From the IMG/VR virus record IMGVR_UViG_3300022666_000296, positions 634 to 64,633 of that record: a DNA stretch of 64,000 nt; one strand, written 5' to 3'. The stretch's first letter is position 1; each line of letters starts with the position of its first letter. This document shows positions 55 to 63,322 of this stretch, in pieces. A model generated the notes under the pieces. It did no database searches, was not told the origin of the DNA, and saw only the letters and a program-made list of their open reading frames with translations. Made by a program: the position numbers and the translations under genes. The DNA is from a virus (lineage: Duplodnaviria; Caudoviricetes).

Positions 55-165
55 GTTGGCTCGTGCCAACAAATATCAGTATAATCGATTTTGTTGGCTG
101 GAGCCAACGTCATATGTCATTACTTTTACGACAAATGTCACATGTTGGCCCGCGCCAACGTTGGC
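55..165. promoter_or_regulatory. Immunity switch: three operators GTTGGC-N4-GCCAAC (55-70, 93-108, 144-159) with overlapping divergent promoters
   Basis: Three exact inverted repeats between divergent genes; minus-strand TTGGCT(107-102)-18-TATACT(83-78); plus-strand TTGGCT(56-61)-18-TATAAT(80-85). Confidence 0.8.
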
Positions 166-951: not shown

Positions 952-2658
952 ATGGGGCAGTACAGCAAACCGAGACCGTTCTATACCAGAAGCGGACTGC
1001 TTCGCTACGAGACCCAAATTCAGCATCGCGAACTTGGTAAATACCAGACCCTCCGCGGCGATAACCCCCACGTTCTTGAACAAATGGCGCTGGCGCGTGT
1101 CAGACAGTGGGATGAACAGTGGCAGCGCCAGCAGGAAACCCAACGCAAACAAAACGAACGTCATACCCGCGCTCGCGACCAGGAAGCCAAGAAAGCCGAG
1201 GCTGCTCAACGCACCCAAGAGGCGCAAACCACACTCGCAACTCTAAACGCACTGCTCAGCCACACCCTGAGCGTTGACGACGTCGTGGATTGGGATTCTC
1301 TGAAAAACCTGAAGGATTTCACACAACCTAGACCGCAACCGCCCACCGAGCCGCCACCGCTACCCAACGCTCCACAACGCGACGCGCCTCAGTACCACAC
1401 CTATATCAACCTGCTAGACCTGATCTTCACGAAGCGTCGCAGCGCCAAAAACAATGCCAGCGCCGAACAATTTCAGCAAGACACAGTTCAATGGCAACAA
1501 GCCAAAGCCCAGCGCGAGCAGACCATCGCGGAACAAGCACTTGCTTACCAGCAAGCGTCAAACCAATGGGAACGCCAGCGCGAAGCCTATCTGCGGCAGC
1601 GCGAGCAAGAAAACGCTGTCATAGATGAAAAACGCCGTCAATACCTCTCTGGTGATCCAGAGGCTATCAAAGACTACTGCGAGCTCGTCCTTGCCAATTC
1701 TGAGTACCCGGACTTCTTTCCACAGGTATACGATCTCGATTACTTGCCAGAAAGCAGCATCTTGTTGATTGACTATCAACTACCTGCGCTCACCGACATA
1801 CCCACACTCTATGATGTGCGGTATATCCAGTCACGTGACGAGTTCACTGAAAAACATCTCCCTGAACCCAAAGCCCGCGCGCTCTATGACCACGTCCTTT
1901 ACCAGATTGCCCTCCGCACGCTCCACGAACTCTTCGAGGCCGATCGCGCAGATGGCATCCAGGCCATAGTTTTCAACGGCTACGTCAAGGCCATTGACCC
2001 CACCTCTGGTCACGAAACCACACCGTGTGTATTGTCGTTGCAAGTCACCCAGGAGACCTTCTCCCAACTCAACCTGGAGAACGTTGATCCCAAAGCTTGT
2101 TTTCGCAGTCTGAAAGGCGTCGCCGCAGCGCATCTCCACACCCTCACTCCAATTGCTCCCGTCCTTAAACTGAACCGTGAGGATGCGCGTTTCATTGACC
2201 CTCAAGAAGTCCTTGAAGGTGTACAAGAAGGCGCAAACCTCGCCACCATGAGCTGGGAAGACTTCGAGCACTTCATCCGCGAACTGTTTGAACGCGAATT
2301 CAGCGTTGCTGGGGGTGAAGTCAAAGTTTCTCGGGCAAGCCGCGACGGAGGCGTGGATGCAGTAGTCTTCGACCCAGATCCCATCCGCGGTGGAAAAATC
2401 GTCATCCAGGCAAAGCGCTACACCAACACCGTTGGTGTATCTGCTGTGCGCGATCTGTTTGGTACAGTTATGAACGAGGGGGCCAATAAAGGCATCCTGG
2501 TCACCACAGCCACCTATGGCGCAGATGCTTACGAATTTGCTCAGGGGAAGCCTATCGTGCTACTCAATGGCAGTGAGCTGCTGCACCTCTTGGAGAAACA
2601 TGGTCACAAAGCGCGTATTGACCTACAAGAAGCCAGACGCATGGCAGGGGAGTATTAA
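952..2658 (+). CDS. Mrr-family restriction endonuclease with long N-terminal coiled-coil
   Basis: C-terminal Mrr_cat motifs SRDGGVD...VIQAKRY...VGVSAVRDL...KGILVTT; Q/E-rich helical N-terminus. Confidence 0.85.
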
Positions 2659-3289: not shown

Positions 3290-3318
3290 CCTTCTGCTAA
3301 TAAAGGATTATCAGCACT
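3290..3318. repeat. dif-like palindromic site S1 CCTTCTGCTAA-TAAAGGA-TTATCAGCACT
   Basis: Member of the genome-wide site family; left flank of attP. Confidence 0.8.
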
Positions 3319-3710: not shown

Positions 3711-4706
3711 ATGGCACGCAAGAAGAATTCTACCCAGTTACGTTTGTCCCAGGCCATAGATGGCTTCTTTCTCGAGCTTCACGCGCGGCGACTCAGCCCT
3801 CACACCATCAGCGACTACCAAAACACCTGCAACAAACTGACCGCATGGCTGCGCGATGATCCCTACATGCACGAAATCGAAGCCGCTACCATTCAGAAGT
3901 TCCTGGCATACCTTGGCAACACCCCACAACAACCCAACACCCCCATCCAACGCCAGGCCAAACCGCTATCCAAGAAATCCGTGCTCAACATCCACACGGG
4001 CCTCTCCGCGCTGTGGACATGGGCATTGCGCGAGGGCATCATCCACGACCACATCATACGCGGCATTCCCCGCCCCAGGCCCGAGAAGCGCGTTATCATC
4101 CCCTTTACCCGCGATGAAGTCGCCGGCATGCTCGACGCTTGCTCTGCGACCAAAGGCTATTTCCAGAAACGCACCTGGTGCGCCAACTCGCGCCCGACCG
4201 AGCTCCGGGACCAGGCCATCATTCGCACCCTCACCGACACTGGCCTACGCGCCTCCGAGCTGTGCGACCTCAAAATCGGGGATTTCGACATGCCCAACCA
4301 CCGGCTCAAAGTCTTCGGCAAAGGCTCTAAAGAGCGCGTGCTGGCGCTGGGGGATCGTACTACCAAAGCGATCTGGCTCTACCTGACCAAAAGCCGGCCC
4401 GCCAACATCAACGCAGACGAGCCGCTTTTCGCCACAGATGATGGCGTCGAGCACCTGACTCGTCGCGCTCTCGGCCTGCTCCTGGAGCGCATCGGCGAAC
4501 GCGCTGGAGTGCCCAACGTTCACCCCCATCGCTTCCGACATACATTCGCGATCACCTACCTCAGAAACGATGGCGACGTCTACAGCCTGCAGATGATGCT
4601 CGGTCACAGCACTCTGGACATGGTCAGACGCTACCTCGCCATCGCCCAGACCGATGTCGAAAAAGCCCATCGTAGAGCCTCGCCCATAGACAACTGGAAA
4701 CTCTGA
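3711..4706 (+). CDS. int: Tyrosine integrase (attP-associated)
   Basis: TGLRASE, K (VFGKGSK), HRFRH, LGHS...MVRRY catalytic motifs; follows the tRNA-derived att core. Confidence 0.95.
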   Translation: MARKKNSTQLRLSQAIDGFFLELHARRLSPHTISDYQNTCNKLTAWLRDDPYMHEIEAATIQKFLAYLGNTPQQPNTPIQRQAKPLSKKSVLNIHTGLSALWTWALREGIIHDHIIRGIPRPRPEKRVIIPFTRDEVAGMLDACSATKGYFQKRTWCANSRPTELRDQAIIRTLTDTGLRASELCDLKIGDFDMPNHRLKVFGKGSKERVLALGDRTTKAIWLYLTKSRPANINADEPLFATDDGVEHLTRRALGLLLERIGERAGVPNVHPHRFRHTFAITYLRNDGDVYSLQMMLGHSTLDMVRRYLAIAQTDVEKAHRRASPIDNWKL

Positions 4707-40938: not shown

Positions 40939-40966
40939 CGTGCTGCTAAGAAACGGTAGCAGCACC
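40939..40966. repeat. Site S10 CGTGCTGCTAA-GAAACG-GTAGCAGCACC (6-bp spacer)
   Basis: Intergenic; invariant CTGCTAA arm present. Confidence 0.6.
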
Positions 40967-48499: not shown

Positions 48500-49654
48500 T
48501 TATCGCACCAACACCGCTTGAGTCGCCAAGCGGCCATCGTCTGTCACACGTAGTGCCAACTCCAATGGCGCGTCCGCGTCCGCATCCATGGCTGACCATT
48601 TGCGCGGCCACATATCCCGCGCCCACATTTCCTTGATAACAGCTTCCTCACTATCATCTACCAGCGACATTACCCCTACCCGCTGCTGAATATCGAGAAC
48701 CTTCTCAAGCCCATAGGCGCGCGCTTCCATGGTCAGCGGCCCCATGCGCTGTACGTTGCGCGACCACTGACCATCCTGGCGCTTCTCAGGCGCAACTTTG
48801 CGCTTGCGCCACTTTGGTTGCTTCAACTCGCGCCACAACGGTTTCAATTCCAGAAGCGGCATCAGCTGTGCCCATTCAGGATCGCGCACCACGCGCTCCA
48901 AGGCCACATCCCGCGAGGCCAACGGGCAACCCACACACCCCGTTCTGACCTCATCCTCCCCATACACTGTGGCAATGCCTGGCACATCGTACCCATGCCC
49001 CATCGGATCATAGTACAACCAGTCGTACACATGACACACGCGCCAGTGCAACAACGGCGCCAGCGTATCCGCAACGCTATCAGGTGTACTGACCTGAAAC
49101 CAGCCCTGCCCACACTCGCCGCCATTCACGCTGCAACTAACGGCGATACGCTGATCGCGCGCGGCACTCTCGCCTACGCGCACACCGGTCAACATTAGAA
49201 TCTTCCCGTTTTGATCGCGTAAATCGTCCAAAACGGTCATCATCGGCTGTATCTTAATTTTGTCCGTACACCAGCGAAACGTATTGCTAGATGGAGGTAC
49301 GCCGTAGCCGAGCATATAGACCAGGAAGCGATCTCTGATCTGCGGCAGCACCCACTTGGCTGTGAAGCCCTGCTTGCGTAACCGCGCCATTAAATTCAAT
49401 GCTGACCGTTGTAACGGCGGAAGCTCTAACCGCGTGTCTACATACAACACTGTCAAGGAATCCGGCGCAGGAACTAATCCCTTCCGGATAGCCCATGCCA
49501 CAAACGTCACAGTAGCCGTTGAGTCTTTCCCACCACTGTAAGCCACAGCCCAGTGGCGATACCGCGCACCGTACTCCCGCAAACTCGTGAGACTTCGCTC
49601 GACCGCTTGCTCCAACGTCAACCGCATCCCTTCAAACAATGATAGCTGTCTCAT
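48500..49654 (-). CDS. PAPS reductase-family (DndC-like) protein
   Basis: PP-loop AYSGGKDS, RWCTDKIKI, GVRVGESAAR, RTGCVGC. Confidence 0.85.
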   Translation of the reverse strand: MRQLSLFEGMRLTLEQAVERSLTSLREYGARYRHWAVAYSGGKDSTATVTFVAWAIRKGLVPAPDSLTVLYVDTRLELPPLQRSALNLMARLRKQGFTAKWVLPQIRDRFLVYMLGYGVPPSSNTFRWCTDKIKIQPMMTVLDDLRDQNGKILMLTGVRVGESAARDQRIAVSCSVNGGECGQGWFQVSTPDSVADTLAPLLHWRVCHVYDWLYYDPMGHGYDVPGIATVYGEDEVRTGCVGCPLASRDVALERVVRDPEWAQLMPLLELKPLWRELKQPKWRKRKVAPEKRQDGQWSRNVQRMGPLTMEARAYGLEKVLDIQQRVGVMSLVDDSEEAVIKEMWARDMWPRKWSAMDADADAPLELALRVTDDGRLATQAVLVR

Positions 49655-50022
49655 TACAATTCCCTCTCCACCTTCGCAAACGCCTGGTACGCCTGCATCA
49701 TCCACCGCGCGCGGGATCCGGCCAACACCTCAATCTCTAACTGCCTCGTCCGTCTCCCCATTTCCGCCTCTCTCTCCCATGCGTGCCATTCACGGTCGCA
49801 TATAGACTTGTCCAACGGTGTCCCAGTCGCCTCTGCCCATTCAACCGCAAAAGTCGGCACATCGTGGCCTCTCACACCAGGAAAGCCAGCTGCAGCGCAC
49901 ATCTCGCAGATCAACGCATTACCGCCACTGATCATCTTTCCGGCAAGCACCACTGTTCGCCGGCATTGGCTGCAGCGCTCTGCTCGTAACCCCACCCGTT
50001 GTTTTATCGCTACCATGCTCAT
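49654..50022 (-). CDS. Hypothetical Zn-finger protein
   Basis: CSQC...CEMC; TAATG overlap with the downstream gene. Confidence 0.5.
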   Translation of the reverse strand: MSMVAIKQRVGLRAERCSQCRRTVVLAGKMISGGNALICEMCAAAGFPGVRGHDVPTFAVEWAEATGTPLDKSICDREWHAWEREAEMGRRTRQLEIEVLAGSRARWMMQAYQAFAKVEREL

Positions 50023-50054: not shown

Positions 50055-51428
50055 CTAGGTTAGCAACGCCCTGCACAACGCCGTCGCCGTATGGATTGGC
50101 ACAGAATTTCCAATCTGTCTCACCACATCACCGCGATTGCCATGGAAGGTATAGGTTTTGCGGTACGAGTGCGCAGCTGCCATCTCGTGCGGCAACAACA
50201 TCCTGAACAGAATGTCCAACATGAACACACCCTCTCCAGACTTGAATAGCAATGGCTGCGCCAATCCCAACCGATCTCGGGTCGTAAACGTGGGGAACGG
50301 TGCATCCACTGACTGAGCATCTGCCGTACCGTTATACTGAACCAGAAACGGTTGCGCTAACGCCCAGGCGTCAACTCCTGTAATTGTCCGTAATGGCTCG
50401 TCTATCGAATAACTCCTGGTATCCGTTCCATGATTCACCGTAGTGATGAACGGCTGGCACAGCCCGATATGCTGACCGCGCGCCGTAATCGTGGGCAGCG
50501 GCGCATCTATAGACACAGCATCACACGTCTTGTAGAACTTCACCAAAAACGGTTGTATCAACGAAATCGCGCCGGCAGTCGCTACAGTCGGCAGCGGATC
50601 ATCTACCGAGCGTGGCGCTGCCGAACTCTGCTGCCCGATCACAAACGGCAGGCCGGAGAACTTCACCAGACCTGCATGAATGCGGCGCAACGTATTCTCG
50701 GCCAGCGGCTTCTTTCGGGAATAGATGGACTCGCCCGGAATTGACCAGTCGATCACCTCCCGCGCTGTTTTCCACGGGCGAACGTGCTGTGGCAACAAAT
50801 GTACCTGCCCGACATCATCGTTGAACCGGCTATGCGTGGGCGTGGGCCAGCATACCCGCTTGCCTTTACGCCCGAGAATGAACAGCCGTTCGCGAGTAGT
50901 AGCATCCCCGAAATCAGCACAGTTGATAACCCGGTGCTCAACTTCGTAGCCGAGGCTTTCCAGCGCCTGCAGATATGCCAGAAATGTCTTGCCCTCGAAT
51001 TTCCGGATCGGTCTTCCGGTATCTGCATCAACTGGGCCCCATTTCATCAAGTCGGGCACATTCTCAATCAGCACCGATCTGACATCCAACTTCTCCAGCC
51101 AATCCAGCACCAACCACGGCGAAATACGTTGTTGGTCCCCCATCGGTCGTCCACCGCGAGCGCGCGAGAAGAACGTGCACTGCGGACCTGCGACCAAAAT
51201 ATCCAGCTTCCCAGAGGGCACTACCGAGCGTGGATCAACATCCTGGACACCAGCGCAGTAATGCGTAGCCTCAGGATGATTCTCCTTGTGGGTGGCGATG
51301 GCTATCTCCCAGTGATTCACAGCCACCAGGTCCACCGTCAACCCCAATTCAGCCGCTGCAGATTTCAACCCCTCAGTTATGCCTCCGGCGCCACAGAACA
51401 AATCCGCCGCTTGTATCATCCTCATCAT
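50055..51428 (-). CDS. C5-cytosine DNA methyltransferase
   Basis: DLFCGAGG, GPQC (catalytic PC), IENV, RERLF, QIGNSVP; four internal xDxPLPTIT repeats. Confidence 0.9.
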   Translation of the reverse strand: MMRMIQAADLFCGAGGITEGLKSAAAELGLTVDLVAVNHWEIAIATHKENHPEATHYCAGVQDVDPRSVVPSGKLDILVAGPQCTFFSRARGGRPMGDQQRISPWLVLDWLEKLDVRSVLIENVPDLMKWGPVDADTGRPIRKFEGKTFLAYLQALESLGYEVEHRVINCADFGDATTRERLFILGRKGKRVCWPTPTHSRFNDDVGQVHLLPQHVRPWKTAREVIDWSIPGESIYSRKKPLAENTLRRIHAGLVKFSGLPFVIGQQSSAAPRSVDDPLPTVATAGAISLIQPFLVKFYKTCDAVSIDAPLPTITARGQHIGLCQPFITTVNHGTDTRSYSIDEPLRTITGVDAWALAQPFLVQYNGTADAQSVDAPFPTFTTRDRLGLAQPLLFKSGEGVFMLDILFRMLLPHEMAAAHSYRKTYTFHGNRGDVVRQIGNSVPIHTATALCRALLT

Positions 51429-51441
51429 CCCCACCCCCTAC

Positions 51442-52143: not shown

Positions 52144-52604
52144 TGCCCTGTCTCCCTCTTCCAGATCTCCACAATCACTGCCTCACATTCCCGATCACGT
52201 CGACGCACTGAGATGATCTCTACCAGGTAACCCAACGCACCACTGTAACCCGTTGCCCCGAAAGCATACGGCGACACGCGCTGCAACACCTCCTCTGATG
52301 GCGCGGTATTCCCTGCCGTAGCCTGCGCCTCAATCCAGGCTGCAGCTGCTTCAACATCATCGTTGTTACCTGGAACCGGCACGATCTCATCGGCGTGCTG
52401 TCTCACAGCCGCGCGTTGTAATGGTAAAAACCACTGGTCCAATGCAGCGCATAATACTCGGTCGACATCTGTAGGCTCATAGTCCCCCAACAGGTTTAGT
52501 CCATTTTCCCCCATCTTTTTTTCTCCTGCGCCTCTATATCTTCCACGGTACTTATGAAACTTATGAATCGTATTCATAGCTTTCATAAGTTTCACACGTT
52601 TCAC
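52131..52604 (-). CDS. Hypothetical protein
   Basis: 157 aa ORF; N-terminus overlaps an AT-rich repeat region, so the start is uncertain. Confidence 0.45.
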   Translation of the reverse strand: MKRVKLMKAMNTIHKFHKYRGRYRGAGEKKMGENGLNLLGDYEPTDVDRVLCAALDQWFLPLQRAAVRQHADEIVPVPGNNDDVEAAAAWIEAQATAGNTAPSEEVLQRVSPYAFGATGYSGALGYLVEIISVRRRDRECEAVIVEIWKRETGQCDR

Positions 52605-55600
52605 ACGTTTCCAGGAAGACCCCCTTCATTATTAAAGATAGTATTGGTTATTCTCAGCACCCATGGACGAGTACTGAGCCCCATTTGATAGAGAAATGTG
52701 TTCCCGGTTGGGCGTTCTGCTGGGTGCAATAAACCTTCCTCACGTAATTTCACTTTGATACCCCGTTCGGTATCATTGAAGACTACTCCGCTGTTGCGGT
52801 AGAACTGCACGATAGTCTTAAATGTCGGTCCAGAGAGCAGATAAAGGTATTGCTCATCGTACCAACCCAGAAACTCCGCGCCAACCTCGCGGTCAGCGCC
52901 TTTGGGCAGCATCTTATCCGGCATTTCAGGATACTCGCGATGCCGCAGATACACACTGCCCTGTGCAACCAACTGGCTCAACGCATCGAGGTACATCATT
53001 ACTGGTTTCTCGTCCTGCGCCGTAACCTGTTGCGCATCACCCAGTTCAACGAGCATTTGCCAACCCAGATCGCGCAAGCCATCATAGTCGCAGTCCAGCA
53101 CACCCAACTGCTGTGCATAGGACACAAACATATCCCACCCGACAAACAGCGAGGCCACATTGGCGGGCATCCTCAAATGCGCGCCGCGCGCCCGCGCCGC
53201 CTCCGTGTAATCGAGTAAACGCTCCGGCAGCTTCTGCTCCAACTCGTCATACTGCTGTGCCAACCACTGCACATATCCACCCAGTGCATGCGGATATCGT
53301 TGCGCGTGCTCTGTCTGCGCCAACGTCAACGGTGAATTGGCTCCGCGTGTCACCATCTCCGGGTGTACCTCCACTTGAAACAGTCTGGCTTGGATGGATT
53401 GGCCAGGTGGCAATTGCTCCGCTGTCGAGATGATCAATCCGCGGGGAGCAAATGTCTGCCGCAGCTTGAGATTCGCCTGCATACGGCTCCGGCCAGCCCG
53501 GTTACCCCAATCGCGGAGGAGCTGATCCACCTTTGCCTTGAGTTCGTTCATCCCACTGAAGGTGCTTTGCGTGGTGTAATCGTCAATCCAAAGGGGAGCG
53601 TCTTTAACCAAGAACGCCTTCCGCTCCAAGGCGTTGGACGTTCCAGTCCAGCTCGCCGGCGGTGTGTTGTAGGAGAATTTTCCATAATGGCTGCACGCTA
53701 ACGCCGTAATCGTAGACTTCATGCTGCCGGTGGTCCCGTAAACCCACAGCGTGAACGACGGCGGGATAATGCTGCTCAGCGGTGCCAGATACATCGCTGC
53801 CAACAATGGCACCGTCACGGAGTAGTCGCCAGTGTCCAAAAATGCATACGAGGCTCGCAGCGCCTCTTCTACATGTTCGGGGGTTGTGGGCAGTTTATAG
53901 CGGATCAAATCCGGAGGTAGACGCACTTCCACATTATCGCGTCCCACTGCACCAGCACCGGAGAGATATACCTGCTGCTCACTGATCCTCCGCCAGCCGA
54001 TGTGCCCATACACATACTGCGTCTGTACCTCGCGGCTCGTGGCCTGCATCGCTGCCCGCAAATGGTCGCGGGTTGCCGACCCGGCCTCCACCACGGCGCG
54101 CGCCCCCCAGAGGTTGAGTACCCACCCCATCCCCGGAAAATCCCCCGCAGGTACGTCTACTGTAGGCAGCATGCCGCCATCGGCCAGCTTCCCATGAATG
54201 CGGAAAACGCGTTCCTGGGTATCGCCGTCGTCTTCCACAATTTCGGATGCAATCTGCGCCGTGAAATTGCTGAGTGGACAATAAACCTCGCTTCCGTGAC
54301 CGTCATAGTAGCGGTGACAAAGCCTGCCCCCCATGATGACATACTTTGGCTTGCCATCATCCGCCAATCCTGCTTCCTGTCGTGCAGCTTTTAACAGTGC
54401 ATCGAAGGTTCCTTTCTTGATCTGCAACGACTTGCAGATCTTCTCCCGCATCCGCGCCACATCGTACACATCTAACGCTGCGAGCGCACCAAATAGCGTT
54501 CTGGTCGCTTCTTCATCCCCCTCTTCATCACCGTTTTGTGGCAACGCTGCGTGGAGCAGCACCTCAATCCACGTTGGCGATCCGGTGAGTAGCGCACGGG
54601 CTTCAGTTGACTTTGCCCCGGCTTGCAGCCAGCCATTGGCGTCCCCGGCTGGCCAGGTTACCCGGTGCAACGCTGTGCCTTTCAGTTCCAGTACCGTCAT
54701 CAGTCGTTCGGCCAGTTTGGGTGTAGCTTCTTGTCCAGCATGATCGGCGTCCAACCCCATCACGATCTGCCCGCCTGTGATCGCCAGTTGCCGCTTGACC
54801 TGCTGCAGTAACAGATGCTCTTCATCTGCCTTCTCGCCCACATCGCAGCCTGCCAGAGCCACTGCCGGCACACCCCACTGCTGCAGCGTCAGTGCGCAAG
54901 CTTGCCCCTCAACCAACACGGTCAGCGGATAAGAATCCTCGACCTCGGTCTCAGGTTTCGAGCGACCCCACAGCGTATTGAAGAATGGCTTGCGTCCGCC
55001 TGCCAGACTGCTTGGCGGGTTCCAAGACTTTGGACCATTCGTGGTCTCGATATGCCGTCCAGAGAGATACGTTACCCGCCCCCCAAGCACGTGCGGGTAA
55101 ATCAGCATGTCTGGAGGCATCGCCGGGACTTTTCCAGTCTCCACCCATTTCGGCGCTGGAGCGACATCCCATTTCTCAGCCCAAGCCGCCACATCACCAC
55201 GATACCCTATCAATGCCACCGCTGCAGGGCATTCCAGCTCCACATCCTGGGCATTCAACGCCGTCCGCAGCGCATCCCAATCCTTACCGAAGTAGCCCAC
55301 CCCGCCGGCGCGCAACGTCTGATCATCGAAGCCACGCTGTCTAGCGTAAACCAGCCCCGGAGAGTGGCTTTCAGCGCGCTCTCCACTGTTAAGCCCAAGC
55401 CGCGCGTGGAAGAAATCGGCTGCGGCTGCAAACACAGTCTCTGCTTCGCGCGTTTTCTGCAGGGTGCGCTTCTCCTCGGCCGATAACGGAGTCAGTTCTA
55501 CCCCCGCCTCCCGCGCTAACTCGCGTAGCGCCGTACTCATATCCCAACCCTCGCGGCGCATCACAAAATCAAAAACGTCTCCACCGGCGCCGCAGCCGAA

Positions 55601-55765
55601 ACATTTGAAGCGTTCCGTATCAGTGAAGACAAAAAACGATGGCGTGTTTTCCGTGTGGAATGGACACACTCCGCGCATGTTCTTTCCAGCGCGGCTGAGT
55701 TGCACGTACCTCCCCACCACTTCATCAATATGTAACCGATCTTTTATCTTTTCTACCAAGGTCAT
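52601..55765 (-). CDS. Primase-helicase: CHC2 Zn finger + TOPRIM + C-terminal P-loop (DUF927-like)
   Basis: CPFH.E.TPSF...KCFGCG; LVEG...GLDAD; VYGTTGSMKST Walker A. Confidence 0.9.
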   Translation of the reverse strand: MTLVEKIKDRLHIDEVVGRYVQLSRAGKNMRGVCPFHTENTPSFFVFTDTERFKCFGCGAGGDVFDFVMRREGWDMSTALRELAREAGVELTPLSAEEKRTLQKTREAETVFAAAADFFHARLGLNSGERAESHSPGLVYARQRGFDDQTLRAGGVGYFGKDWDALRTALNAQDVELECPAAVALIGYRGDVAAWAEKWDVAPAPKWVETGKVPAMPPDMLIYPHVLGGRVTYLSGRHIETTNGPKSWNPPSSLAGGRKPFFNTLWGRSKPETEVEDSYPLTVLVEGQACALTLQQWGVPAVALAGCDVGEKADEEHLLLQQVKRQLAITGGQIVMGLDADHAGQEATPKLAERLMTVLELKGTALHRVTWPAGDANGWLQAGAKSTEARALLTGSPTWIEVLLHAALPQNGDEEGDEEATRTLFGALAALDVYDVARMREKICKSLQIKKGTFDALLKAARQEAGLADDGKPKYVIMGGRLCHRYYDGHGSEVYCPLSNFTAQIASEIVEDDGDTQERVFRIHGKLADGGMLPTVDVPAGDFPGMGWVLNLWGARAVVEAGSATRDHLRAAMQATSREVQTQYVYGHIGWRRISEQQVYLSGAGAVGRDNVEVRLPPDLIRYKLPTTPEHVEEALRASYAFLDTGDYSVTVPLLAAMYLAPLSSIIPPSFTLWVYGTTGSMKSTITALACSHYGKFSYNTPPASWTGTSNALERKAFLVKDAPLWIDDYTTQSTFSGMNELKAKVDQLLRDWGNRAGRSRMQANLKLRQTFAPRGLIISTAEQLPPGQSIQARLFQVEVHPEMVTRGANSPLTLAQTEHAQRYPHALGGYVQWLAQQYDELEQKLPERLLDYTEAARARGAHLRMPANVASLFVGWDMFVSYAQQLGVLDCDYDGLRDLGWQMLVELGDAQQVTAQDEKPVMMYLDALSQLVAQGSVYLRHREYPEMPDKMLPKGADREVGAEFLGWYDEQYLYLLSGPTFKTIVQFYRNSGVVFNDTERGIKVKLREEGLLHPAERPTGNTFLYQMGLSTRPWVLRITNTIFNNEGGLPGNV

Positions 55766-55782
55766 GAGCACACCCCCAATTT

Positions 55783-56530: not shown

Positions 56531-57328
56531 TTACAAACCACACTCGCCTGCGAGCCAGCGCGCCGCCACTTCATATCCACCGGTGCGCTTACCGTTGCCG
56601 TTTAGCTCCACCCCGACCAACGCCGGGCAACGCGCATCGAACTCCACCAGCGTTTTCCCGGAGGCTTGGGCCTTCCCTACCGTGGCATCGGTAGGGACTG
56701 GCGGCGCAACCTGCCGGCCAAACGTCTCAGCCAGCATGCGTAACCGCTCAAGATTACCCTTGATCCGCCGGTCGAGCATGGTTGGCAGTACGCCGGCGAA
56801 TCCGCCCCGGAAGGCATCAACCCGCTTCAGGCTTGCCACACTCTCCAAGGCTTCTCGAACGCCCACGAGTGCCAGATGCTCCAGACTAACGGGAATCACA
56901 AACGAGGTGCAGGCCACCAGCGCCGCCAGTTGTAGAATATCTGCACCGGGCGCCACATCCAGCACCACCGCATCGAAGCCTCCCGCAAGACCCTCCAACA
57001 CCTCACGGAGTTTATACACGCCAAACGGATCACCGCTCAGAATCTGGCGAGTGCGCGCAGTCGTCTTGTCACCCAGTACCACGCTCAACCCATCGCGCCC
57101 GCTCTCGCGGATGGCAGCCCGGCCGACTTCGCCGATTAACAGGCGATTGAGATCGCCCGTCTTTTCCAGACCTAGACAGTCGGCGACATTCCCCTGAGCA
57201 TCTAGGTCTATGATCAAAACCCTGCGCCCCTCCATCGCCCATAAGTGAGCGACGGTGACCGATGAGGTTGTTTTGCCCACGCCTCCCTTTTGGTTGACAA
57301 ACGCGCATACCGCAACTTGCTTTTTCAT
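56531..57328 (-). CDS. parA: ParA family ATPase
   Basis: NQKGGVGKTT, IIDLDAQGN, VLDVAPG. Confidence 0.9.
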   Translation of the reverse strand: MKKQVAVCAFVNQKGGVGKTTSSVTVAHLWAMEGRRVLIIDLDAQGNVADCLGLEKTGDLNRLLIGEVGRAAIRESGRDGLSVVLGDKTTARTRQILSGDPFGVYKLREVLEGLAGGFDAVVLDVAPGADILQLAALVACTSFVIPVSLEHLALVGVREALESVASLKRVDAFRGGFAGVLPTMLDRRIKGNLERLRMLAETFGRQVAPPVPTDATVGKAQASGKTLVEFDARCPALVGVELNGNGKRTGGYEVAARWLAGECGL

Positions 57329-57369
57329 TCCCCACCTCCAAAACTCATAGCTAAACTTGTAATCTCTGC

Positions 57370-57400
57370 TACGCAAATACCGCTTGACAGTATTTGCGTA
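57370..57400. promoter_or_regulatory. Inverted repeat upstream of parA (operator or hairpin)
   Basis: TACGCAAATAC-N9-GTATTTGCGTA, perfect 11-bp arms. Confidence 0.55.
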
Positions 57401-57407
57401 ACACAAA

Positions 57408-59204: not shown

Positions 59205-60536
59205 CTACGCTGCCGCCCCAGACTTGTTGAAAAATGTCGGCAGGGAGAACCGCTTTTTTGTAGTAGTAGTAGCACTCTCATCGTGTGCTGTCATCCAGTC
59301 CAACGCCTGCTCGACTCGCGTTGTGGCCGCTCCCCCGGCGTAACCGCACAACGCAATCTCGCGTTGTCGGTTCGATCGGAATGGCGCCCCATTCTGCTGT
59401 TCTAGCGCCAGTAGTTTCGCCGCATCGATAGCAGCCTGTGCAGCTGCTTCCACTTCCACCGGCGCTTCTGGCAACGTCAGCTCCGGCGCAATCTTTGCCT
59501 CTGCCGCAACTTTGTCTAGCTCTATCCGTGCGTCCTGCTCGCTAATGAACGCTACTTGGAACCGCAATGCCGCCGTACCTCCGCCAACAGCCATGAAGTC
59601 TCCACGCCCGTTCAAACTCTCTGCACCAGACTGACCACGTCCCGTCGCGATGCGCGCATCCTCCGCCGAGACCACCTTTCCCACCAAGCGCAACGGGAAG
59701 TTCGCCCGCATCAAACCGCTCAGTACGGCGGCGCTGGGACGCTGTGTCGCCGCCACTAGGTGAATCCCAGCCTCTCGCCCTCGCTGCACCAACCGTGTCA
59801 GTAGCGCCTCGATGCCATCACCCGTCATGACCAAATCAGCTAACTCGTCCACCAGCACTACAATGCGTGGCAAATGCTCACCTTGGCGATCGCGCACTTC
59901 CATCAACCGTGTGAGGGAACGCAACGATTCGCGGACCTCTACAGGCTCCACAATCATCTGCCGGAGCAAATGCGGTGTATCCGTGAGCGCGCGGAATGCG
60001 CGCCCCTTCGGATCGAAACACATCAGCCGCACCTCGGTGGGCGCCTGGCCCAATGCCAGCGAGACTGCTATGGTGCGCAGCAGCACCGTCTTGCCGCTGC
60101 CGGTCGTCCCACTGATGAGCACATGCGCTACATCGGGTGATGCGAGACGCGCCAGCAGGGGCGCGCCATCATCAGTCGAACCCAACAATGCCGTTGCTGC
60201 TGGCAATGGCTGCAGATCCGCCCACATCCCCATAAACGTTACTGGACGGGGTTCTGGATTGGGAATCTCGATAATCAATCCCTGCGCCGTTTTCTCAAAG
60301 CGCACCGACGTGACCTTGAGTGCCAACGCCAGATCGTCGGCCAGCGCCGTGATGGCAGCCATCCGCACTTGTGGCGCCAGATCCAGGGTAAAGCGGATCA
60401 GGCGTGGACCAATCGTGCCACCGGTGACCCGCGCTGGTGCGCGGTGATTCAACAGCACCCTTTCCAACTCATCTGCCTGATGCTCCAAATACTGCCGCAA
60501 CATCCTTGTCATTTCCCCACCTCCCTGCTTTGTCAT
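59205..60536 (-). CDS. FtsK/SpoIIIE-family DNA translocase-like ATPase
   Basis: HVLISGTTGSGKT, FDPKG, VLVDELADL, GREAGIHLVAATQRP; alpha-domain-like N-terminus; no TM. Confidence 0.9.
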   Translation of the reverse strand: MTKQGGGEMTRMLRQYLEHQADELERVLLNHRAPARVTGGTIGPRLIRFTLDLAPQVRMAAITALADDLALALKVTSVRFEKTAQGLIIEIPNPEPRPVTFMGMWADLQPLPAATALLGSTDDGAPLLARLASPDVAHVLISGTTGSGKTVLLRTIAVSLALGQAPTEVRLMCFDPKGRAFRALTDTPHLLRQMIVEPVEVRESLRSLTRLMEVRDRQGEHLPRIVVLVDELADLVMTGDGIEALLTRLVQRGREAGIHLVAATQRPSAAVLSGLMRANFPLRLVGKVVSAEDARIATGRGQSGAESLNGRGDFMAVGGGTAALRFQVAFISEQDARIELDKVAAEAKIAPELTLPEAPVEVEAAAQAAIDAAKLLALEQQNGAPFRSNRQREIALCGYAGGAATTRVEQALDWMTAHDESATTTTKKRFSLPTFFNKSGAAA

Positions 60537-61216
60537 GCCCACCCGGGCGTTTTCTTTACAGTCACACTCTCAATTTCCTCTGCACACCAATACCAGTGCG
60601 ACGGTATCTCCTCCGAGGTCCCCACGTGCACCTTCTCGATGCGCACCACGTGCGGAATCCAAATCGAGTCGCCTTCCACCGTGAGAAAATGCTCATCACC
60701 GCTGCCGGCATATCGCACTTCGTAGAACATCTTCTCATCTTCGCCAAACCAAACCTTGTAAAACGTGAATGGCTTGAATGCGGCTGCCTGCAGCGCGTCC
60801 CTTCTCTTCCGCCACTGCTCATTCACCTGTGCCCGCGCTAGCCAGCGCGCCACATGCTCGCGTCCCTCCTCAGGGTATTGCGGGCATTTCCACAAATAGC
60901 CTTCACTAGGCCGCAAATGCACCCGCGTGACCTCGCCACCCTCAAAACTGAATCCACTGAGCGCCACGCAAAACGTTTCACCGAACGCATGCAGATACAC
61001 ACAGAAGCCATTCTCGCCAACGTCATCCACGAATTCAGCCTCCAGCGCCGTCAACTCTGCCGCACTCAAAGCTAAGAACTGCGCCACGGCCTTTAGCGCT
61101 CGGGGCTGTGCCGCAGCGCGCAGTTGCTCCAGCTGCGCAGCTTCAGTCGCGCGCGCATAGGACTCATCCGCCAAAATCCGTTTTCCCACCTCTAGCAATT
61201 CCCTCAACGCCACCAT
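60533..61216 (-). CDS. Hypothetical protein
   Basis: GAGGAGG RBS before ATG 61216. Confidence 0.6.
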   Translation of the reverse strand: MVALRELLEVGKRILADESYARATEAAQLEQLRAAAQPRALKAVAQFLALSAAELTALEAEFVDDVGENGFCVYLHAFGETFCVALSGFSFEGGEVTRVHLRPSEGYLWKCPQYPEEGREHVARWLARAQVNEQWRKRRDALQAAAFKPFTFYKVWFGEDEKMFYEVRYAGSGDEHFLTVEGDSIWIPHVVRIEKVHVGTSEEIPSHWYWCAEEIESVTVKKTPGWA

Positions 61217-62035: not shown

Positions 62036-62064
62036 TCCTCCGCTAACAAACGCTTAGCAGCACT
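62036..62064. repeat. dif-like site S15 TCCTCCGCTAA-CAAACGC-TTAGCAGCACT
   Basis: Overlaps the stop codon of the second tyrosine recombinase. Confidence 0.85.
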
Positions 62065-63322
62065 ATTCCGCCATCAACTTCATCTGCCGGCTGGCGATTT
62101 CGGCGAACACATCCGCAGCCCGCGCATCCTCGGGCTCATCCAACACCGCACGCGAATAAATCTCCGTGATGGCAATCGAACTGTGGCCCAGGATTTCTTT
62201 TAGCTCATACACATCCGCGCCCTTCTGGCGACGCAGCCGCGCACCTGCATGCCGTAGCCCGTGCGAGTGTAACTTCTCCTCCGCCACATCCGCCTTCCTT
62301 CCATAGCGCTTCAACAGTTCATTCACCTGCCGCGGCGAAAGCGGCTGCGCCTCGCGGTCGTAGTCCACCATGTGCGGCAACCGTGTCGCGGTGTCGCGCA
62401 ACGCTACGAAGATGAAATCCCGTTCCCCCAACGGATAGCGCCCAACTGCCTTGAGATAGCGCACCATCAAGCGCCATAGTTCTCCAGGCAGTTTCTGCCG
62501 GTGGGTTTTTCCGCCCTTCTGCGTGATCTCGAACCACCGTCCCGTCTCTCCCTCGTGGATGTCGCCCCAGCGCAGATTCACCCACTCACTCACCCTGCGT
62601 GTGGTAATGAACATTCCCAGCAACAGCGCCATATCGCGCAACCCCTGTGGGCGATCCATGGGGATCGCGGCGAAGATGCGCCGCACCTCATCACTCGTCG
62701 GGAACTCGCGCCGTCCAAACGCCTTTACCCGGCGCTTGATGACGGCATTCACAGGATTCTGCCCCGTGAATAACGGCACCTCACGCCCGTCGCGTTCAAT
62801 GGGATAGTTGCGATTGCAGAAACTGTAGAAGCTTGAGATGGCTGCCAGCATTTGATTGATACTGGCCTCACTCAGTGGGCCGGTTCCGAAGAGCATCCGG
62901 GTACACGCCGCGCAGGCGCGGAAACCCAACTTCTCTGCCACATCTGGCGCGGTTTCCGTGGGCATACCTGTGTGCGCCATGCGACAGGAAGGATGGTGAT
63001 ACACGTGTCCGCCCAGCAGCACCTTGCCCGTGTATGGATCTCCAGCAAGACGCAACGACTGTGCCCAACGCTCCACATCCGATGTGCGGATCAACCATGG
63101 CGCCTTTCCGGTGAATTTCAGGAGCGCCTCCCAGGCTGCCCGATACGCCCGCCGGGTATTCTCAGACTTACGTGATGCCAGCCATAACGCCGCCGCTCCA
63201 GCCCATTGCTCTGCCGTGGTCTGTTCTGGATCCGCTACCGCTGCCGGTGCCTCTGCCGCTGACGCCAGCATCAGCCTGGTCTCATCCACTACCACACCCC
63301 GCTCACCCCAGTTCGCGTGCAT
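62063..63322 (-). CDS. Second tyrosine recombinase with inserted Ada-like Zn-binding domain
   Basis: R (TTRRVSE), K (QKGGK), HGLRH, LGHSS...TEIY all intact; insert HVYHHPSC...LGFRACAAC. Confidence 0.9.
   Translation of the reverse strand: MHANWGERGVVVDETRLMLASAAEAPAAVADPEQTTAEQWAGAAALWLASRKSENTRRAYRAAWEALLKFTGKAPWLIRTSDVERWAQSLRLAGDPYTGKVLLGGHVYHHPSCRMAHTGMPTETAPDVAEKLGFRACAACTRMLFGTGPLSEASINQMLAAISSFYSFCNRNYPIERDGREVPLFTGQNPVNAVIKRRVKAFGRREFPTSDEVRRIFAAIPMDRPQGLRDMALLLGMFITTRRVSEWVNLRWGDIHEGETGRWFEITQKGGKTHRQKLPGELWRLMVRYLKAVGRYPLGERDFIFVALRDTATRLPHMVDYDREAQPLSPRQVNELLKRYGRKADVAEEKLHSHGLRHAGARLRRQKGADVYELKEILGHSSIAITEIYSRAVLDEPEDARAADVFAEIASRQMKLMAE

What the first reader, a model, noticed from the sequence alone, without database searches (positions are those of the whole stretch)
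62036..63322. Second catalytically intact tyrosine recombinase with an Ada-like zinc finger spliced into its core-binding domain
Seen: the full R-K-H-R-H-Y set is present. About 54 aa (~62878-63040; GHVYHHPSCRMAH...AEKLGFRACAAC) interrupt the SAM-like helices between LRLAG and LSEASINQMLAAISSFY. The gene lies in the early operon far from attP, which has its own integrase, and its stop codon overlaps site S15. Knowledge: the insert resembles the Ada metal-binding motif (C..PSC...A..AGFRPCKRC), which in Ada senses methylphosphotriesters and elsewhere serves as an accessory DNA-binding module. A recombinase abutting its own site is typical of Cre/loxP, integrons and shufflons. Inference: this is the best candidate enzyme for the site array, possibly gated by Zn, redox state or DNA modification.
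Basis: partly seen in the sequence, partly recalled or inferred. Interest (0 to 1): 0.75.

Follow-up and report, generated by a model that had tools for sequence, protein, structure and literature searches.

The report
Phage Xer-like recombinase with Ada-type zinc insert
A Chloroflexota phage encodes an intact Xer/Cre-type DNA recombinase with a very rare zinc-binding module, related to the DNA-repair protein Ada, inserted into its DNA-clamping domain; the insert looks structural rather than a damage sensor, and it does not track the phage's palindromic site array.

Summary
Gene 62063-63322 (-) encodes a 419-aa tyrosine recombinase with R243, K269, H354, R357, H380 and Y389. About 55 residues (95-150) interrupt the core-binding domain where most homologues have a 2-residue turn.

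A profile of the insert finds only Ada N-terminal domains in the PDB, and true Ada proteins in Chloroflexota genomes. The four metal ligands align, but Ada's methyl-acceptor Cys38 is His in all insert carriers. This argues for a structural His-Cys3 site, not a methylation sensor.

Only three protein clusters among 5.8 billion carry the insert.

The gene is not far from int. The genome is a 64.5-kb circle, and the two recombinase genes lie 4.9 kb apart across the immunity region. This divergent pair recurs in many phages.

The link to the site array is only partly supported:
- For: the sites are dif-like, and in 9 of 45 other phage contigs one abuts the stop codon of the homologous recombinase gene (0.5 expected).
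- Against the insert: a complete phage with the zinc insert has no such sites, while arrays occur with insert-less homologues.
- Against this enzyme in particular: all spacers differ, and Int shows a similar site association.

Most likely this is a Xer/dif-like resolution module. Zinc binding, DNA binding and recombination are all untested.

The parts
62063..63322 (-). Tyrosine recombinase gene ('Rec'), 419 aa plus TAG stop
   Evidence: ORF. Pfam Phage_integrase 1.3e-24 and Phage_int_SAM_1 5e-6. PHROG integrase 9.9e-38. Foldseek best hits are XerH/difH, XerA and Cre.
63041..63217 (-). Core-binding (SAM-like) domain, first three helices (residues 36-94)
   Evidence: AF2 helices 32-49, 54-71 and 80-91 with block pLDDT of about 94-97 over residues 41-90. 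Pfam SAM_1 match 45-94.
62873..63040 (-). Ada-type zinc-module insert (residues 95-150) in the loop before the last core-binding helix
   Evidence: Absent from 48 of 51 homologues and from 28 of 29 viral homologues. Its profile finds only Ada in the PDB and Ada proteins in Chloroflexota genomes. 30-42% identical to ten Ada domains from Chloroflexota genomes.
62996..62998 (-). His109 codon, aligned with Ada Cys38 (first predicted metal ligand)
   Evidence: Invariant in alignment A4. Aligned with C38 of 1ADN. Codon checked.
62984..62986 (-). Cys113 codon, aligned with Ada Cys42
62912..62914 (-). Cys137 codon, aligned with Ada Cys69
62903..62905 (-). Cys140 codon, aligned with Ada Cys72
62807..62872 (-). 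Last core-binding helix (residues 151-172, SEASINQ...SSFY)
   Evidence: AF2 helix 152-171 with block pLDDT of about 94-98. Conserved T154, A160, S163, S164 and Y166.
62123..62710 (-). Catalytic domain with R243, K269, H354, R357, H380 and Y389
   Evidence: Invariant columns in A1. Pfam PF00589 match on residues 209-391. Codons checked.
62036..62064 (.). Site S15: dif-like 11-7-11 palindrome overlapping the Rec stop codon. Its right arm is the Shine-Dalgarno sequence of the next gene. Candidate cognate site.
   Evidence: Sequence. Member of the 11-site family (11 matches against 0.93 expected). Arms are conserved but 6 of 7 spacer bases are changed in a relative whose recombinase is 95% identical in protein (L242).
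3711..4706 (+). Second Xer-like tyrosine recombinase ('Int', 331 aa), divergent partner of Rec across the immunity region
   Evidence: Pfam 2.2e-31. Orthologues lie divergent, 2-5 kb from Rec homologues, in 13 of 29 Rec loci, plus int fragments in two more.
3290..3318 (.). Site S1 of the same family, about 415 nt upstream of int
   Evidence: A site 366-489 nt upstream of int recurs in L144, L159, L200, L206, L210 and G1.
59205..60542 (-). FtsK/SpoIIIE-like translocase, syntenic with Rec in several phages
   Evidence: Pfam FtsK_SpoIIIE 5.2e-35 and FtsK_alpha 1.3e-14. Found downstream of Rec homologues in L054, L055, L063, L069 and L071.
56531..57406 (-). ParA-type partition ATPase of the same early module
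   Evidence: Pfam AAA_31 1.9e-28 and CbiA 2e-18. Syntenic in L054, L056, L061 and L069.
52601..55771 (-). Primase (CHC2 zinc ribbon, Toprim) fused to a DUF927 helicase-type replication protein
   Evidence: Pfam Zn_ribbon_DnaG 8.9e-29 and DUF927 1.8e-8. Syntenic in L054, L061, L063 and G006.

Best explanation
The gene encodes a functional simple tyrosine recombinase of the Xer/Cre type (core-binding plus catalytic domain, no arm-binding domain). It belongs to a temperate, possibly plasmid-like phage of Chloroflexota (Anaerolineae).

It sits in a conserved early module with an FtsK-like translocase, a ParA partition ATPase and a primase-helicase. It lies divergent from a second Xer-like integrase, across the repressor/operator region.

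I infer that it acts as a dimer/tetramer on a dif-like 11-7-11 site abutting its own stop codon (S15). That would make it a self-contained Xer/dif-type module, like XerS/difSL or XerH/difH, that resolves replicon multimers or circularises incoming DNA.

The roughly 55-residue insert is homologous to the zinc-binding core of the Ada N-terminal domain: a beta-hairpin, an H/CxxxC knuckle, a helix and CxxC. It lies in the loop just before the last core-binding helix.

The methyl-acceptor cysteine is replaced by histidine. The module is therefore most likely a permanently folded His-Cys3 zinc domain that adds a DNA-backbone contact next to the core site. It is unlikely to be a methylphosphotriester or redox sensor.

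Shown: gene, catalytic residues, insert, homology to Ada, rarity, synteny and gene-site adjacency. Inferred: zinc binding, DNA contact by the insert, S15 as substrate, and the resolution role.
For: Recombinase identity:
-.
- Below every NCBIfam Xer equivalog cut-off, but the Xer families are the best matches.

Insert:
- Present in only three clusters of 5.8 billion proteins.
- H109, C113, C137 and C140 are invariant.
- Its profile hits only Ada in the PDB, with ligand-for-ligand alignment.
- Its profile also hits Ada/AdaA/MGMT-fusion proteins in 34 of 401 Chloroflexota genomes.
- 30-42% identical to ten Ada domains from Chloroflexota genomes.
- Ada Cys38 is the methyl acceptor and one of four zinc ligands (PMC10814553).

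Context:
- Circular genome.
- Host is Chloroflexota/Anaerolineae.
- Synteny of Rec with FtsK-like, ParA and primase-helicase genes.

Site:
- 11-7-11 anatomy.
- The inner arm CCGATAA of related sites equals the XerC arm of the proposed Frankia dif (PMC3025954).
- 9 of 45 other Rec loci carry a site at the Rec stop, against 0.47 expected.
- Single-recombinase Xer genes are genetically linked to their dif sites (PMC2731167).
- Between relatives whose recombinases are 95% identical in protein, the arms of S15 are kept while 6 of 7 spacer bases change.
Against: - No binding, zinc or recombination data exist.
- The insert is modelled with low confidence: pLDDT below 50 in the full-length model and 60 when modelled alone. 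The structure search with it returned nothing.
- Pfam Ada_Zn_binding and DUF6233 match only below their cut-offs.
- The gene-site adjacency comes mostly from the other main branch of the family. In this gene's own 32-member clade only this phage shows it.
- The complete phage G006, with the same insert, has no site near its recombinase.
- A hairpin at the end of an immediate-early transcript would also explain a site at the stop codon.
- Int has its own recurrent site, so either enzyme, or both, could be the binder.
- The insert accumulates amino-acid changes faster than the rest of the protein: 5 non-synonymous to 2 synonymous, against 14 to 58, Fisher p = 0.008. This fits a peripheral or weakly constrained module.
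Confidence: 0.45

Rival explanations
1. Rec and the 331-aa Int work together as a XerC/XerD-like pair on asymmetric sites. Rec binds one arm type and Int the other. The pair carries out integration and excision at attP (S1 or S15) rather than multimer resolution.
For: - A divergent Rec-Int pair recurs in 13 of 29 Rec loci, plus int fragments in two more, and in at least 17 Int loci.
- The only proteins shared by all three array-bearing phages G0, G1 and G7 are Rec and Int.
- In 8-9 of 11 sites the two arms differ in a consistent way and with one polarity: AGTTCY... against AGTRCT....
- Sites recur both at the Rec stop codon and about 400 nt upstream of int.
Against: - 13 of 29 Rec loci have no Int within the flanks held.
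- About half of the Int loci with enough flank have no Rec.
- G006 keeps Rec, but its Int is a 134-aa fragment.
- The two genes lie in opposite transcription units (lysogenic and early lytic).
- Sites in other phages, such as L210 and L065, are symmetric.
Confidence: 0.15
2. Rec, alone or with Int, binds all 11-15 array sites. The unique spacers prevent deletions within the genome, so each site can recombine only with its positional twin in a genome dimer or in a co-infecting relative (module exchange). Alternatively, the bound protein acts as a transcriptional roadblock.
For: - Arms are conserved while all 11 spacers differ.
- Sites lie at gene junctions and in one orientation, including S1 in the plus-strand block.
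- Arrays recur with variant outer arms in G1, G7, L210, L206 and L159.
- At junction 44897, core plus spacer is identical to relative L048 although the flanks have diverged.
- Identity to L242 falls from 93% to about 70% at S15.
Against: - Most Rec-bearing phages have one site or none per 20 kb.
- G006 has none.
- The main identity break between G0 and L048 (about 39,540) is not at a site.
- The drop at S15 coincides with a gene boundary, so it may only reflect a fast-evolving downstream gene.
Confidence: 0.15
3. The palindromes are not recombinase targets. They are intercistronic RNA hairpins (processing, stabilising or terminator-like signals), or binding sites of another regulator such as the sigma-region-4-like protein encoded just downstream. 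Under this reading Rec's true site lies elsewhere and its adjacency to S15 is incidental.
For: - Sites overlap stop codons and run straight into the next Shine-Dalgarno sequence.
- Rec is the last gene before a change of module, so a transcript-end signal there would recur.
- Outer arms co-vary between phages and keep complementarity.
- The gene after S15 has a Sigma70_r4 match at 8.5e-5.
Against: - The conserved part is sequence (GATAA/GCTAA ... TTATC/TTAGC), not just pairing.
- Two of 11 sites would have C.A mismatches as RNA, and a G.A or A.A mismatch recurs at one stem position.
- No T-run follows the sites.
- S1 keeps the same absolute orientation although local transcription is opposite.
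- No homologue of the r4-like protein was found in G1, G7 or the 29 Rec loci.
- The repressor's operators are a different palindrome, GTTGGC-N4-GCCAAC, present three times.
Confidence: 0.25
4. The insert is a nearly neutral passenger: a captured fragment of a host ada-type gene tolerated in a permissive loop, with no role in recombination.
For: - The same loop holds unrelated inserts of 7-43 aa in other homologues.
- The insert is extremely rare.
- It has an excess of non-synonymous change.
- The tree needs at least two gains or losses.
Against: - The four ligand positions, the flanking P, R and G residues and the hairpin are kept between lineages only 31% identical in the insert.
- The reading frame has been kept intact in three divergent lineages and in independent assemblies.
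Confidence: 0.2

Closest known systems
Single-recombinase Xer modules (XerS/difSL of streptococci and lactococci; XerH/difH of epsilon-proteobacteria)
   Same: One Xer-like simple tyrosine recombinase genetically linked to a roughly 28-31-bp dif-like inverted repeat next to its gene (PMC2731167, PMC2965235). XerH/difH is the best structural match to the model. An FtsK-family gene lies nearby.
   Different: Phage-borne rather than chromosomal. Scores far below the XerS, XerD and XerA equivalog cut-offs. 7-bp spacer. The same site family is repeated 11-15 times in this genome. Carries a zinc-module insert. Dependence on FtsK is unknown.
Cre/loxP of phage P1
   Same: A phage-encoded simple tyrosine recombinase with a palindromic site near its gene, in a phage that also carries partition functions. 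Roles in circularisation and dimer resolution. Cre-lox complexes are strong structural matches.
   Different: loxP is 13-8-13 and single-copy. About 16% sequence identity. No zinc module in Cre. This phage also has a separate integrase.
Ada N-terminal domain (N-Ada, PDB 1ADN/1EYF/1U8B/1ZGW/1WPK; Pfam PF02805)
   Same: Hairpin, xxPxC knuckle, helix and G[FY]RxCxxC. Four ligand positions align. The only PDB family found by the insert profile. 30-42% identity to Ada domains from Chloroflexota genomes.
   Different: The first ligand is His, not the methyl-acceptor Cys38. Only the roughly 50-residue zinc core is present. It is inserted into another domain rather than N-terminal to an AraC or MGMT module. 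Scores below the Pfam cut-off.
Pfam DUF6233 (PF19746)
   Same: Best, though sub-threshold, Pfam match to the insert, over residues 14-46 (16.8 bits, E 0.0074).
   Different: Below the 27.6-bit cut-off. The family has no known function, and no paper in the library mentions it.
XerC/XerD-dif with FtsK
   Same: Two paralogous Xer-like recombinases in one replicon. dif-like sites whose inner arm matches the XerC arm of actinobacterial dif. Most sites have two slightly different arms. An FtsK-like gene is present.
   Different: The two genes are not always together. Many sites rather than one. No evidence that the two proteins interact or that FtsK activates them.

Membership tests
Tyrosine recombinase / phage integrase (PF00589 with SAM-like core-binding domain) | Profile match above the curated cut-off for the catalytic and core-binding domains | tested here: met
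   PF00589 at 87.4 bits (cut-off 27.1). PF02899 at 27.1 bits (cut-off 22.3).
Tyrosine recombinase / phage integrase (PF00589 with SAM-like core-binding domain) | Catalytic R-K-H-R-H/W-Y set | tested here: met
   R243, K269, H354, R357, H380 and Y389 are invariant in 51 homologues. Codons checked.
Tyrosine recombinase / phage integrase (PF00589 with SAM-like core-binding domain) | Two-domain C-clamp fold | tested here: met
   AF2 mean pLDDT 82, above 90 outside the insert and termini. Foldseek hits to XerH, XerA, Cre and lambda Int at E 5e-10 to 1e-7.
Xer chromosome-dimer resolvases (XerC, XerD, XerS, XerA equivalogs) | Score above the NCBIfam equivalog cut-off | tested here: not met
   XerA 98.4 bits against 220, XerD 94.5 against 329.6, XerC 82.8 against 335, XerS 44.1 against 267.
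Xer chromosome-dimer resolvases (XerC, XerD, XerS, XerA equivalogs) | Cognate dif-like site: two roughly 11-bp inverted arms around a 6-8-bp centre | tested here: inconclusive
   S15 has this anatomy and abuts the gene. The adjacency recurs in 9 of 45 loci. Binding was not tested.
Xer chromosome-dimer resolvases (XerC, XerD, XerS, XerA equivalogs) | Activation by the FtsK C-terminal domain | not testable with these tools
   Only synteny with an FtsK-like gene is seen.
Ada_Zn_binding (PF02805) | Profile match above the Pfam gathering score | tested here: not met
   11.8 bits against 23, and only over the C-terminal 17 residues. No match in the genome-wide scan.
Ada_Zn_binding (PF02805) | Reciprocal profile relationship to bona fide Ada domains | tested here: met
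   The insert profile returns only Ada chains from the PDB. It also hits Ada/AdaA/MGMT-fusion proteins in 34 of 401 genomes. 30-42% identity to ten Ada domains from Chloroflexota genomes.
Ada_Zn_binding (PF02805) | Four cysteine zinc ligands (C38, C42, C69, C72), including the nucleophilic methyl acceptor C38 | tested here: not met
   C42, C69 and C72 equivalents are present. The C38 equivalent is His109 in all three lineages.
Ada_Zn_binding (PF02805) | Zinc binding and methylphosphotriester repair | not testable with these tools
   Needs metal analysis and methyl-transfer assays.
DUF6233 (PF19746) | Profile match above the gathering score | tested here: not met
   16.8 bits (insert alone) and 15.6 bits (genome scan), against a cut-off of 27.6.
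Shufflon (Rci) or integron (IntI) systems | Clustered inverted sites within one variable gene (shufflon), or attI/attC cassettes with an IntI-specific insertion (integron) | tested here: not met
   Sites are dispersed every 3-7 kb at gene junctions in one orientation. Integron integrase scores 36.4 bits against 265.

The most novel reading that the evidence does not exclude
This phage group uses two paralogous Xer-like recombinases on an array of 11-15 directly oriented, slightly asymmetric dif-like sites at module junctions. The unique spacers allow each site to recombine only with its positional twin. This would give safe multi-point dimer resolution and site-specific module exchange between co-infecting relatives. 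In this lineage the His-Cys3 Ada-derived zinc module extends or retunes DNA recognition. Because His lowers the negative charge of the metal centre, the module may behave like a 'locked-on' version of Ada's methylation switch.
Probability: 0.1. Interest if true: 0.85.

Novelty: new variant of a known kind. Interest (0 to 1): 0.55.

Why it matters
Tyrosine recombinases are normally diversified by added arm-binding domains at the N-terminus. A zinc module inserted inside the core-binding clamp, and derived from the Ada repair/sensor domain, was not found in the literature library searched. It occurs in only three protein clusters among billions.

If the module contacts DNA, it shows a new way to extend or retarget recombinase site recognition. 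That is of interest for engineering Cre/Xer-type tools.

It would also be a natural Cys-to-His variant of Ada's metal centre, which tests the electrostatic-switch idea.

The comparative result is the more general lead. Xer-like phage recombinase genes repeatedly carry a dif-like site at their stop codon. This defines a phage-borne Xer/dif module in uncultured Chloroflexota phages, and it gives the separately reported site array two concrete candidate binders.

Tried and rejected
- **Single-sequence searches with the insert.** A search of 1.84 billion representative proteins found only P0003; the other three hits are repetitive proteins scored over many repeats. The PDB search gave only chance matches. 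The ESM Atlas gave no usable hit.
- **Structure of the insert.** The full-length AF2 model gives pLDDT below 50 for residues 97-146. A second model of the insert alone, with ten Ada domains in the alignment, reached only pLDDT 60. Its Foldseek search gave nothing below E = 2. There is therefore no structural confirmation.
- **Complex prediction.** Rec catalytic domain (195-419) with the C-terminal 71 residues of the FtsK-like protein returned 'no answer', score 0.00. This is not evidence either way.
- **Close relatives among isolated phages.** None were found: blastn gave no match, and tblastn against 50,697 phage records gave nothing above 28% identity.
- **Host dif.** GATAA-N6-TTATC occurs 0-2 times in four large Chloroflexota genomes and 11 times in a fifth (control 4). 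The copies lack extended conserved arms. The host dif was not identified, so integration at dif could not be tested.
- **The array as repressor 'stoperators'.** The HTH_3 repressor gene sits beside three GTTGGC-N4-GCCAAC operators, a different motif.
- **The array as ECF-type promoters (GGAAC).** The spacing to the start codons leaves no room for a -10 element and a leader.
- **Mosaic breakpoints at sites (G0 against L048).** The main break does not fall at a site.
- **Literature.** No paper in the library links a tyrosine recombinase to a zinc or Ada-like module in its core-binding domain, and none mentions DUF6233.
Full report
**1. What is at the coordinates**

The window is bases 634-64633 of a 64,633-bp IMG/VR virus record. 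The record's 127-bp terminal repeat equals the assembler's k-mer overlap, and the same length is seen in an unrelated record. The genome is therefore a 64,506-bp circle.

The ORF runs 62063..63322 on the minus strand and encodes 419 aa. It starts at an ATG preceded by AGGAGGA and overlaps the upstream stop codon (TAATG). It ends in TAG, whose last two bases open the 29-bp palindrome S15. The right arm of S15 is the Shine-Dalgarno sequence of the next gene.

**2. The recombinase**

- Pfam finds Phage_integrase (87 bits) and the SAM-like core-binding domain, both above cut-off. PHROGs calls it an integrase.
- By sequence, the closest solved proteins are an archaeal XerA-type recombinase and XerD.
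- The AF2 model (mean pLDDT 82) is most like XerH/difH, XerA and Cre/loxP.
- R243, K269, H354, R357, H380 and Y389 are invariant among 51 homologues.
- It scores far below every NCBIfam Xer equivalog cut-off. It is Xer-like, not a Xer orthologue.
- No isolated phage has a relative above 28% identity.
- Identical or near-identical proteins occur in an Anaerolineae MAG and a Chloroflexota MAG. This identifies the likely host phylum.

**3. The insert is real and very rare**

- Between W86 and A160 the protein has 75 residues, where 20 of 29 viral homologues have 19-20. In the 51-sequence alignment only the close relative P0003 shares the insert; the 99%-identical P0002 (not aligned) also carries it.
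- An exhaustive HMMER pass over 1.84 billion representatives found one true relative of the insert.
- A profile search of 5.8 billion clusters found three: P0001/P0002, P0003 and P0067.
- P0067 is the recombinase of a second circular phage, G006 (L053:9947-11308). It is 34% identical overall and carries the module at the same point.
- Invariant across the three lineages are a TG...G hairpin, V, H109, P111, C113, R114, G133, R135, C137 and C140.
- H110 and H117 are not conserved, so the ligand set is His-Cys3.

**4. Relation to Ada**

- Pfam matches to the insert alone are sub-threshold: DUF6233 at 16.8 bits and Ada_Zn_binding at 11.8 bits.
- A profile of the three inserts, searched against all PDB sequences, returns only the four Ada N-terminal-domain sequences (E 0.04-0.12). 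H109, C113, C137 and C140 align with Ada C38, C42, C69 and C72.
- The same profile hits 34 of 401 Chloroflexota genomes. The seven hits inspected are Ada-AraC-MGMT, AdaA-AlkA or MGMT fused to a C-terminal Ada-like domain. All carry YC[RKLF]P[ST]C.
- Aligned to ten such domains, the insert is 30-42% identical over about 50 residues, including the preceding beta-hairpin.
- I therefore accept homology to the Ada zinc core.
- Cys38 is Ada's methyl acceptor as well as a zinc ligand (PMC10814553), and it is His in every recombinase insert. Methyl capture is therefore very unlikely.
- From my own knowledge of the Ada electrostatic-switch model, marked as inference: a His-Cys3 centre carries less negative charge than Cys4. 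It would then resemble the methylated, DNA-binding state.
- Structure prediction did not help.

**5. Evolution of the insert**

- On a tree built without the insert columns, the three carriers fall in one well-supported 32-member clade but in two sub-clades. At least two gains or losses are needed.
- Neighbours of P0067 have short loops containing a similar [TS]G[KRQ]xL motif. These may be remnants of the hairpin (inference).
- Other homologues carry unrelated inserts of 7-43 aa at the same point. The loop is an insertion hot spot.
- Against a metagenomic relative whose recombinase is 95% identical in protein (L242), the insert shows 5 non-synonymous and 2 synonymous codon changes. The rest of the gene shows 14 and 58 (Fisher p = 0.008). 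None of the changes touches a ligand.

**6. Genomic setting**

- Rec is about the sixth gene of the early minus-strand operon. That operon starts at a control region with three GTTGGC-N4-GCCAAC operators beside an HTH_3 repressor gene.
- Downstream of Rec, in order, lie:
  - a small sigma-region-4-like protein;
  - a zinc-ribbon protein;
  - an FtsK/SpoIIIE-like translocase;
  - ParA with an adjacent repeat array;
  - a primase-helicase.
- The plus-strand block holds the repressor, an Mrr-type nuclease and the 331-aa Int.
- On the circle Rec and Int are 4.9 kb apart and divergent.
- This arrangement recurs. Thirteen of 29 Rec loci have an Int orthologue 2-5 kb away on the other strand, two more have int fragments, and at least 17 Int loci have a Rec homologue upstream.
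- Rec also occurs without Int (13 of 29 loci). It is syntenic with FtsK-like, ParA and primase-helicase genes in several phages.
- In G006 the Int is a 134-aa fragment while Rec is intact.
- Rec therefore has a role of its own within a replication/partition-type module. This points to multimer resolution or circularisation rather than classical integration (inference).

**7. The site array**

- GCTAA-N7-TTAGC with at most one mismatch occurs 11 times against 0.93 expected.
- The sites sit at gene junctions and have 11-nt arms. All 11 spacers are different.
- The link to the zinc insert fails. G006 has 0 sites (control 2). G007, whose Rec has a different insert, has 12. G001 has 8. Two further Rec-bearing records are at control level.
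- A generalised motif, [CTA]G[AC]TAA-N6/7-TTA[TG]C[AGT], is strongly enriched in these phage loci: 25 against 2 control, and 45 against 2 control.
- Its inner arm CCGATAA equals the XerC arm of the proposed Frankia dif (PMC3025954).
- In 9 of 45 non-redundant Rec loci a site lies within -40..+160 nt of the Rec stop codon, seven of them within 10 nt, against 0.47 expected. In six of these loci it is the only site.
- This parallels the gene-site linkage of XerS/difSL and XerH/difH (PMC2731167).

Several points limit this evidence:
- These nine loci are mostly in the other main branch of the family.
- Int shows its own recurrent site 366-489 nt upstream.
- A more distant integrase group has paired sites at its 5' end.
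- The motif therefore looks like a general core-site type for this recombinase superfamily. The array in this genome cannot be assigned to Rec rather than Int.
- Between relatives whose recombinases are 95% identical in protein, S15 keeps its arms but changes 6 of 7 spacer bases. Nucleotide identity drops from 93% to about 70% exactly there. This is suggestive of exchange at the site, but it coincides with a gene boundary.
- Another pair of relatives shows its main break away from any site.

**8. Verdict**

The Ada likeness is real homology, but with the sensor cysteine replaced.

The enzyme is best read as a phage Xer/dif-type recombinase whose candidate site is S15. The zinc module is best read as a rare, lineage-specific accessory, probably structural or DNA-contacting.

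The claim that this subfamily goes with the array is refuted by G006 and G007. The broader idea that Xer-like phage recombinases act on this site family gains support.

My confidence by step:
- gene and catalytic set: 0.95
- Ada homology: 0.8
- zinc binding: 0.7
- S15 as substrate: 0.45
- resolution role: 0.35

Noticed in passing
window 55-70, 93-108, 144-159 (next to gene 183-521): Three GTTGGC-N4-GCCAAC palindromes lie in the divergent control region beside an HTH_3 repressor gene. These are probably the real immunity operators, and they are distinct from the array motif.
   Followed up: partly
L210 (sites at 111, 3582, 7695, 9575, 9931, 14124, 15411, 19502, 20057); also L206, L159, L172: Other phages with Int and Rec homologues carry their own arrays. 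The core GATAA-N7-TTATC is the same but the outer arms differ and still pair (for example CCGAC...GTCGG, nine sites in 21 kb).
   Followed up: partly
L094, L098, L104, L106, L109-L111, L121, L126, L128, L130: A more distant integrase group has GATAA-N6/7-TTATC palindromes at about the 5' end of the integrase gene, most as a pair 76 bp apart (L098 has one). They look like att or operator sites of that family.
   Followed up: no
L053:9173-9577 (-) in G006: A 134-aa ORF fuses an HTH-like N-terminus to only the last ~85 residues of an Int orthologue (63% identity), next to the intact zinc-insert recombinase. This looks like a decayed integrase.
   Followed up: partly
window 59205-60542 (-), C-terminal ~90 residues: The FtsK-like protein ends in a short conserved segment (xIxxxGYAGGAAxxxVxxAL, shared with L055). 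By eye it recalls the FtsK gamma winged helix. No Pfam match was found.
   Followed up: partly
G010:C252:2-301 and G010:C142:3-137 (L219, L220): In a Chloroflexota MAG the near-identical recombinase gene is split between two contigs. One contig ends at residue 100, just inside the start of the insert. This may reflect strain heterogeneity there.
   Followed up: no
L232, L233 (Chloroflexota genomes): Two proteins have an MGMT-type methyltransferase domain followed by a C-terminal Ada-like zinc domain, the reverse of the usual order. They are the Ada domains most similar to the insert (42% identity).
   Followed up: no
window 62036-62064 compared with L242:1425-1470: Between phages whose recombinases are 95% identical in protein, the S15 arms are kept and 6 of 7 spacer bases differ. 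Nucleotide identity falls from about 93% to about 70% from this point on.
   Followed up: partly
window 952-2658 (+), 50055-51434 (-), 48500-49705 (-): An Mrr-type restriction nuclease lies in the lysogeny block. A C5 cytosine methylase and a PAPS-reductase-like protein lie in the early/middle region.
   Followed up: no
window 40939-40965 compared with L048:7483-7499: The degenerate site at 40945 in this genome differs by a 1-nt deletion from an intact GCTAA-N7-TTAGC site in the close relative L048.
   Followed up: partly
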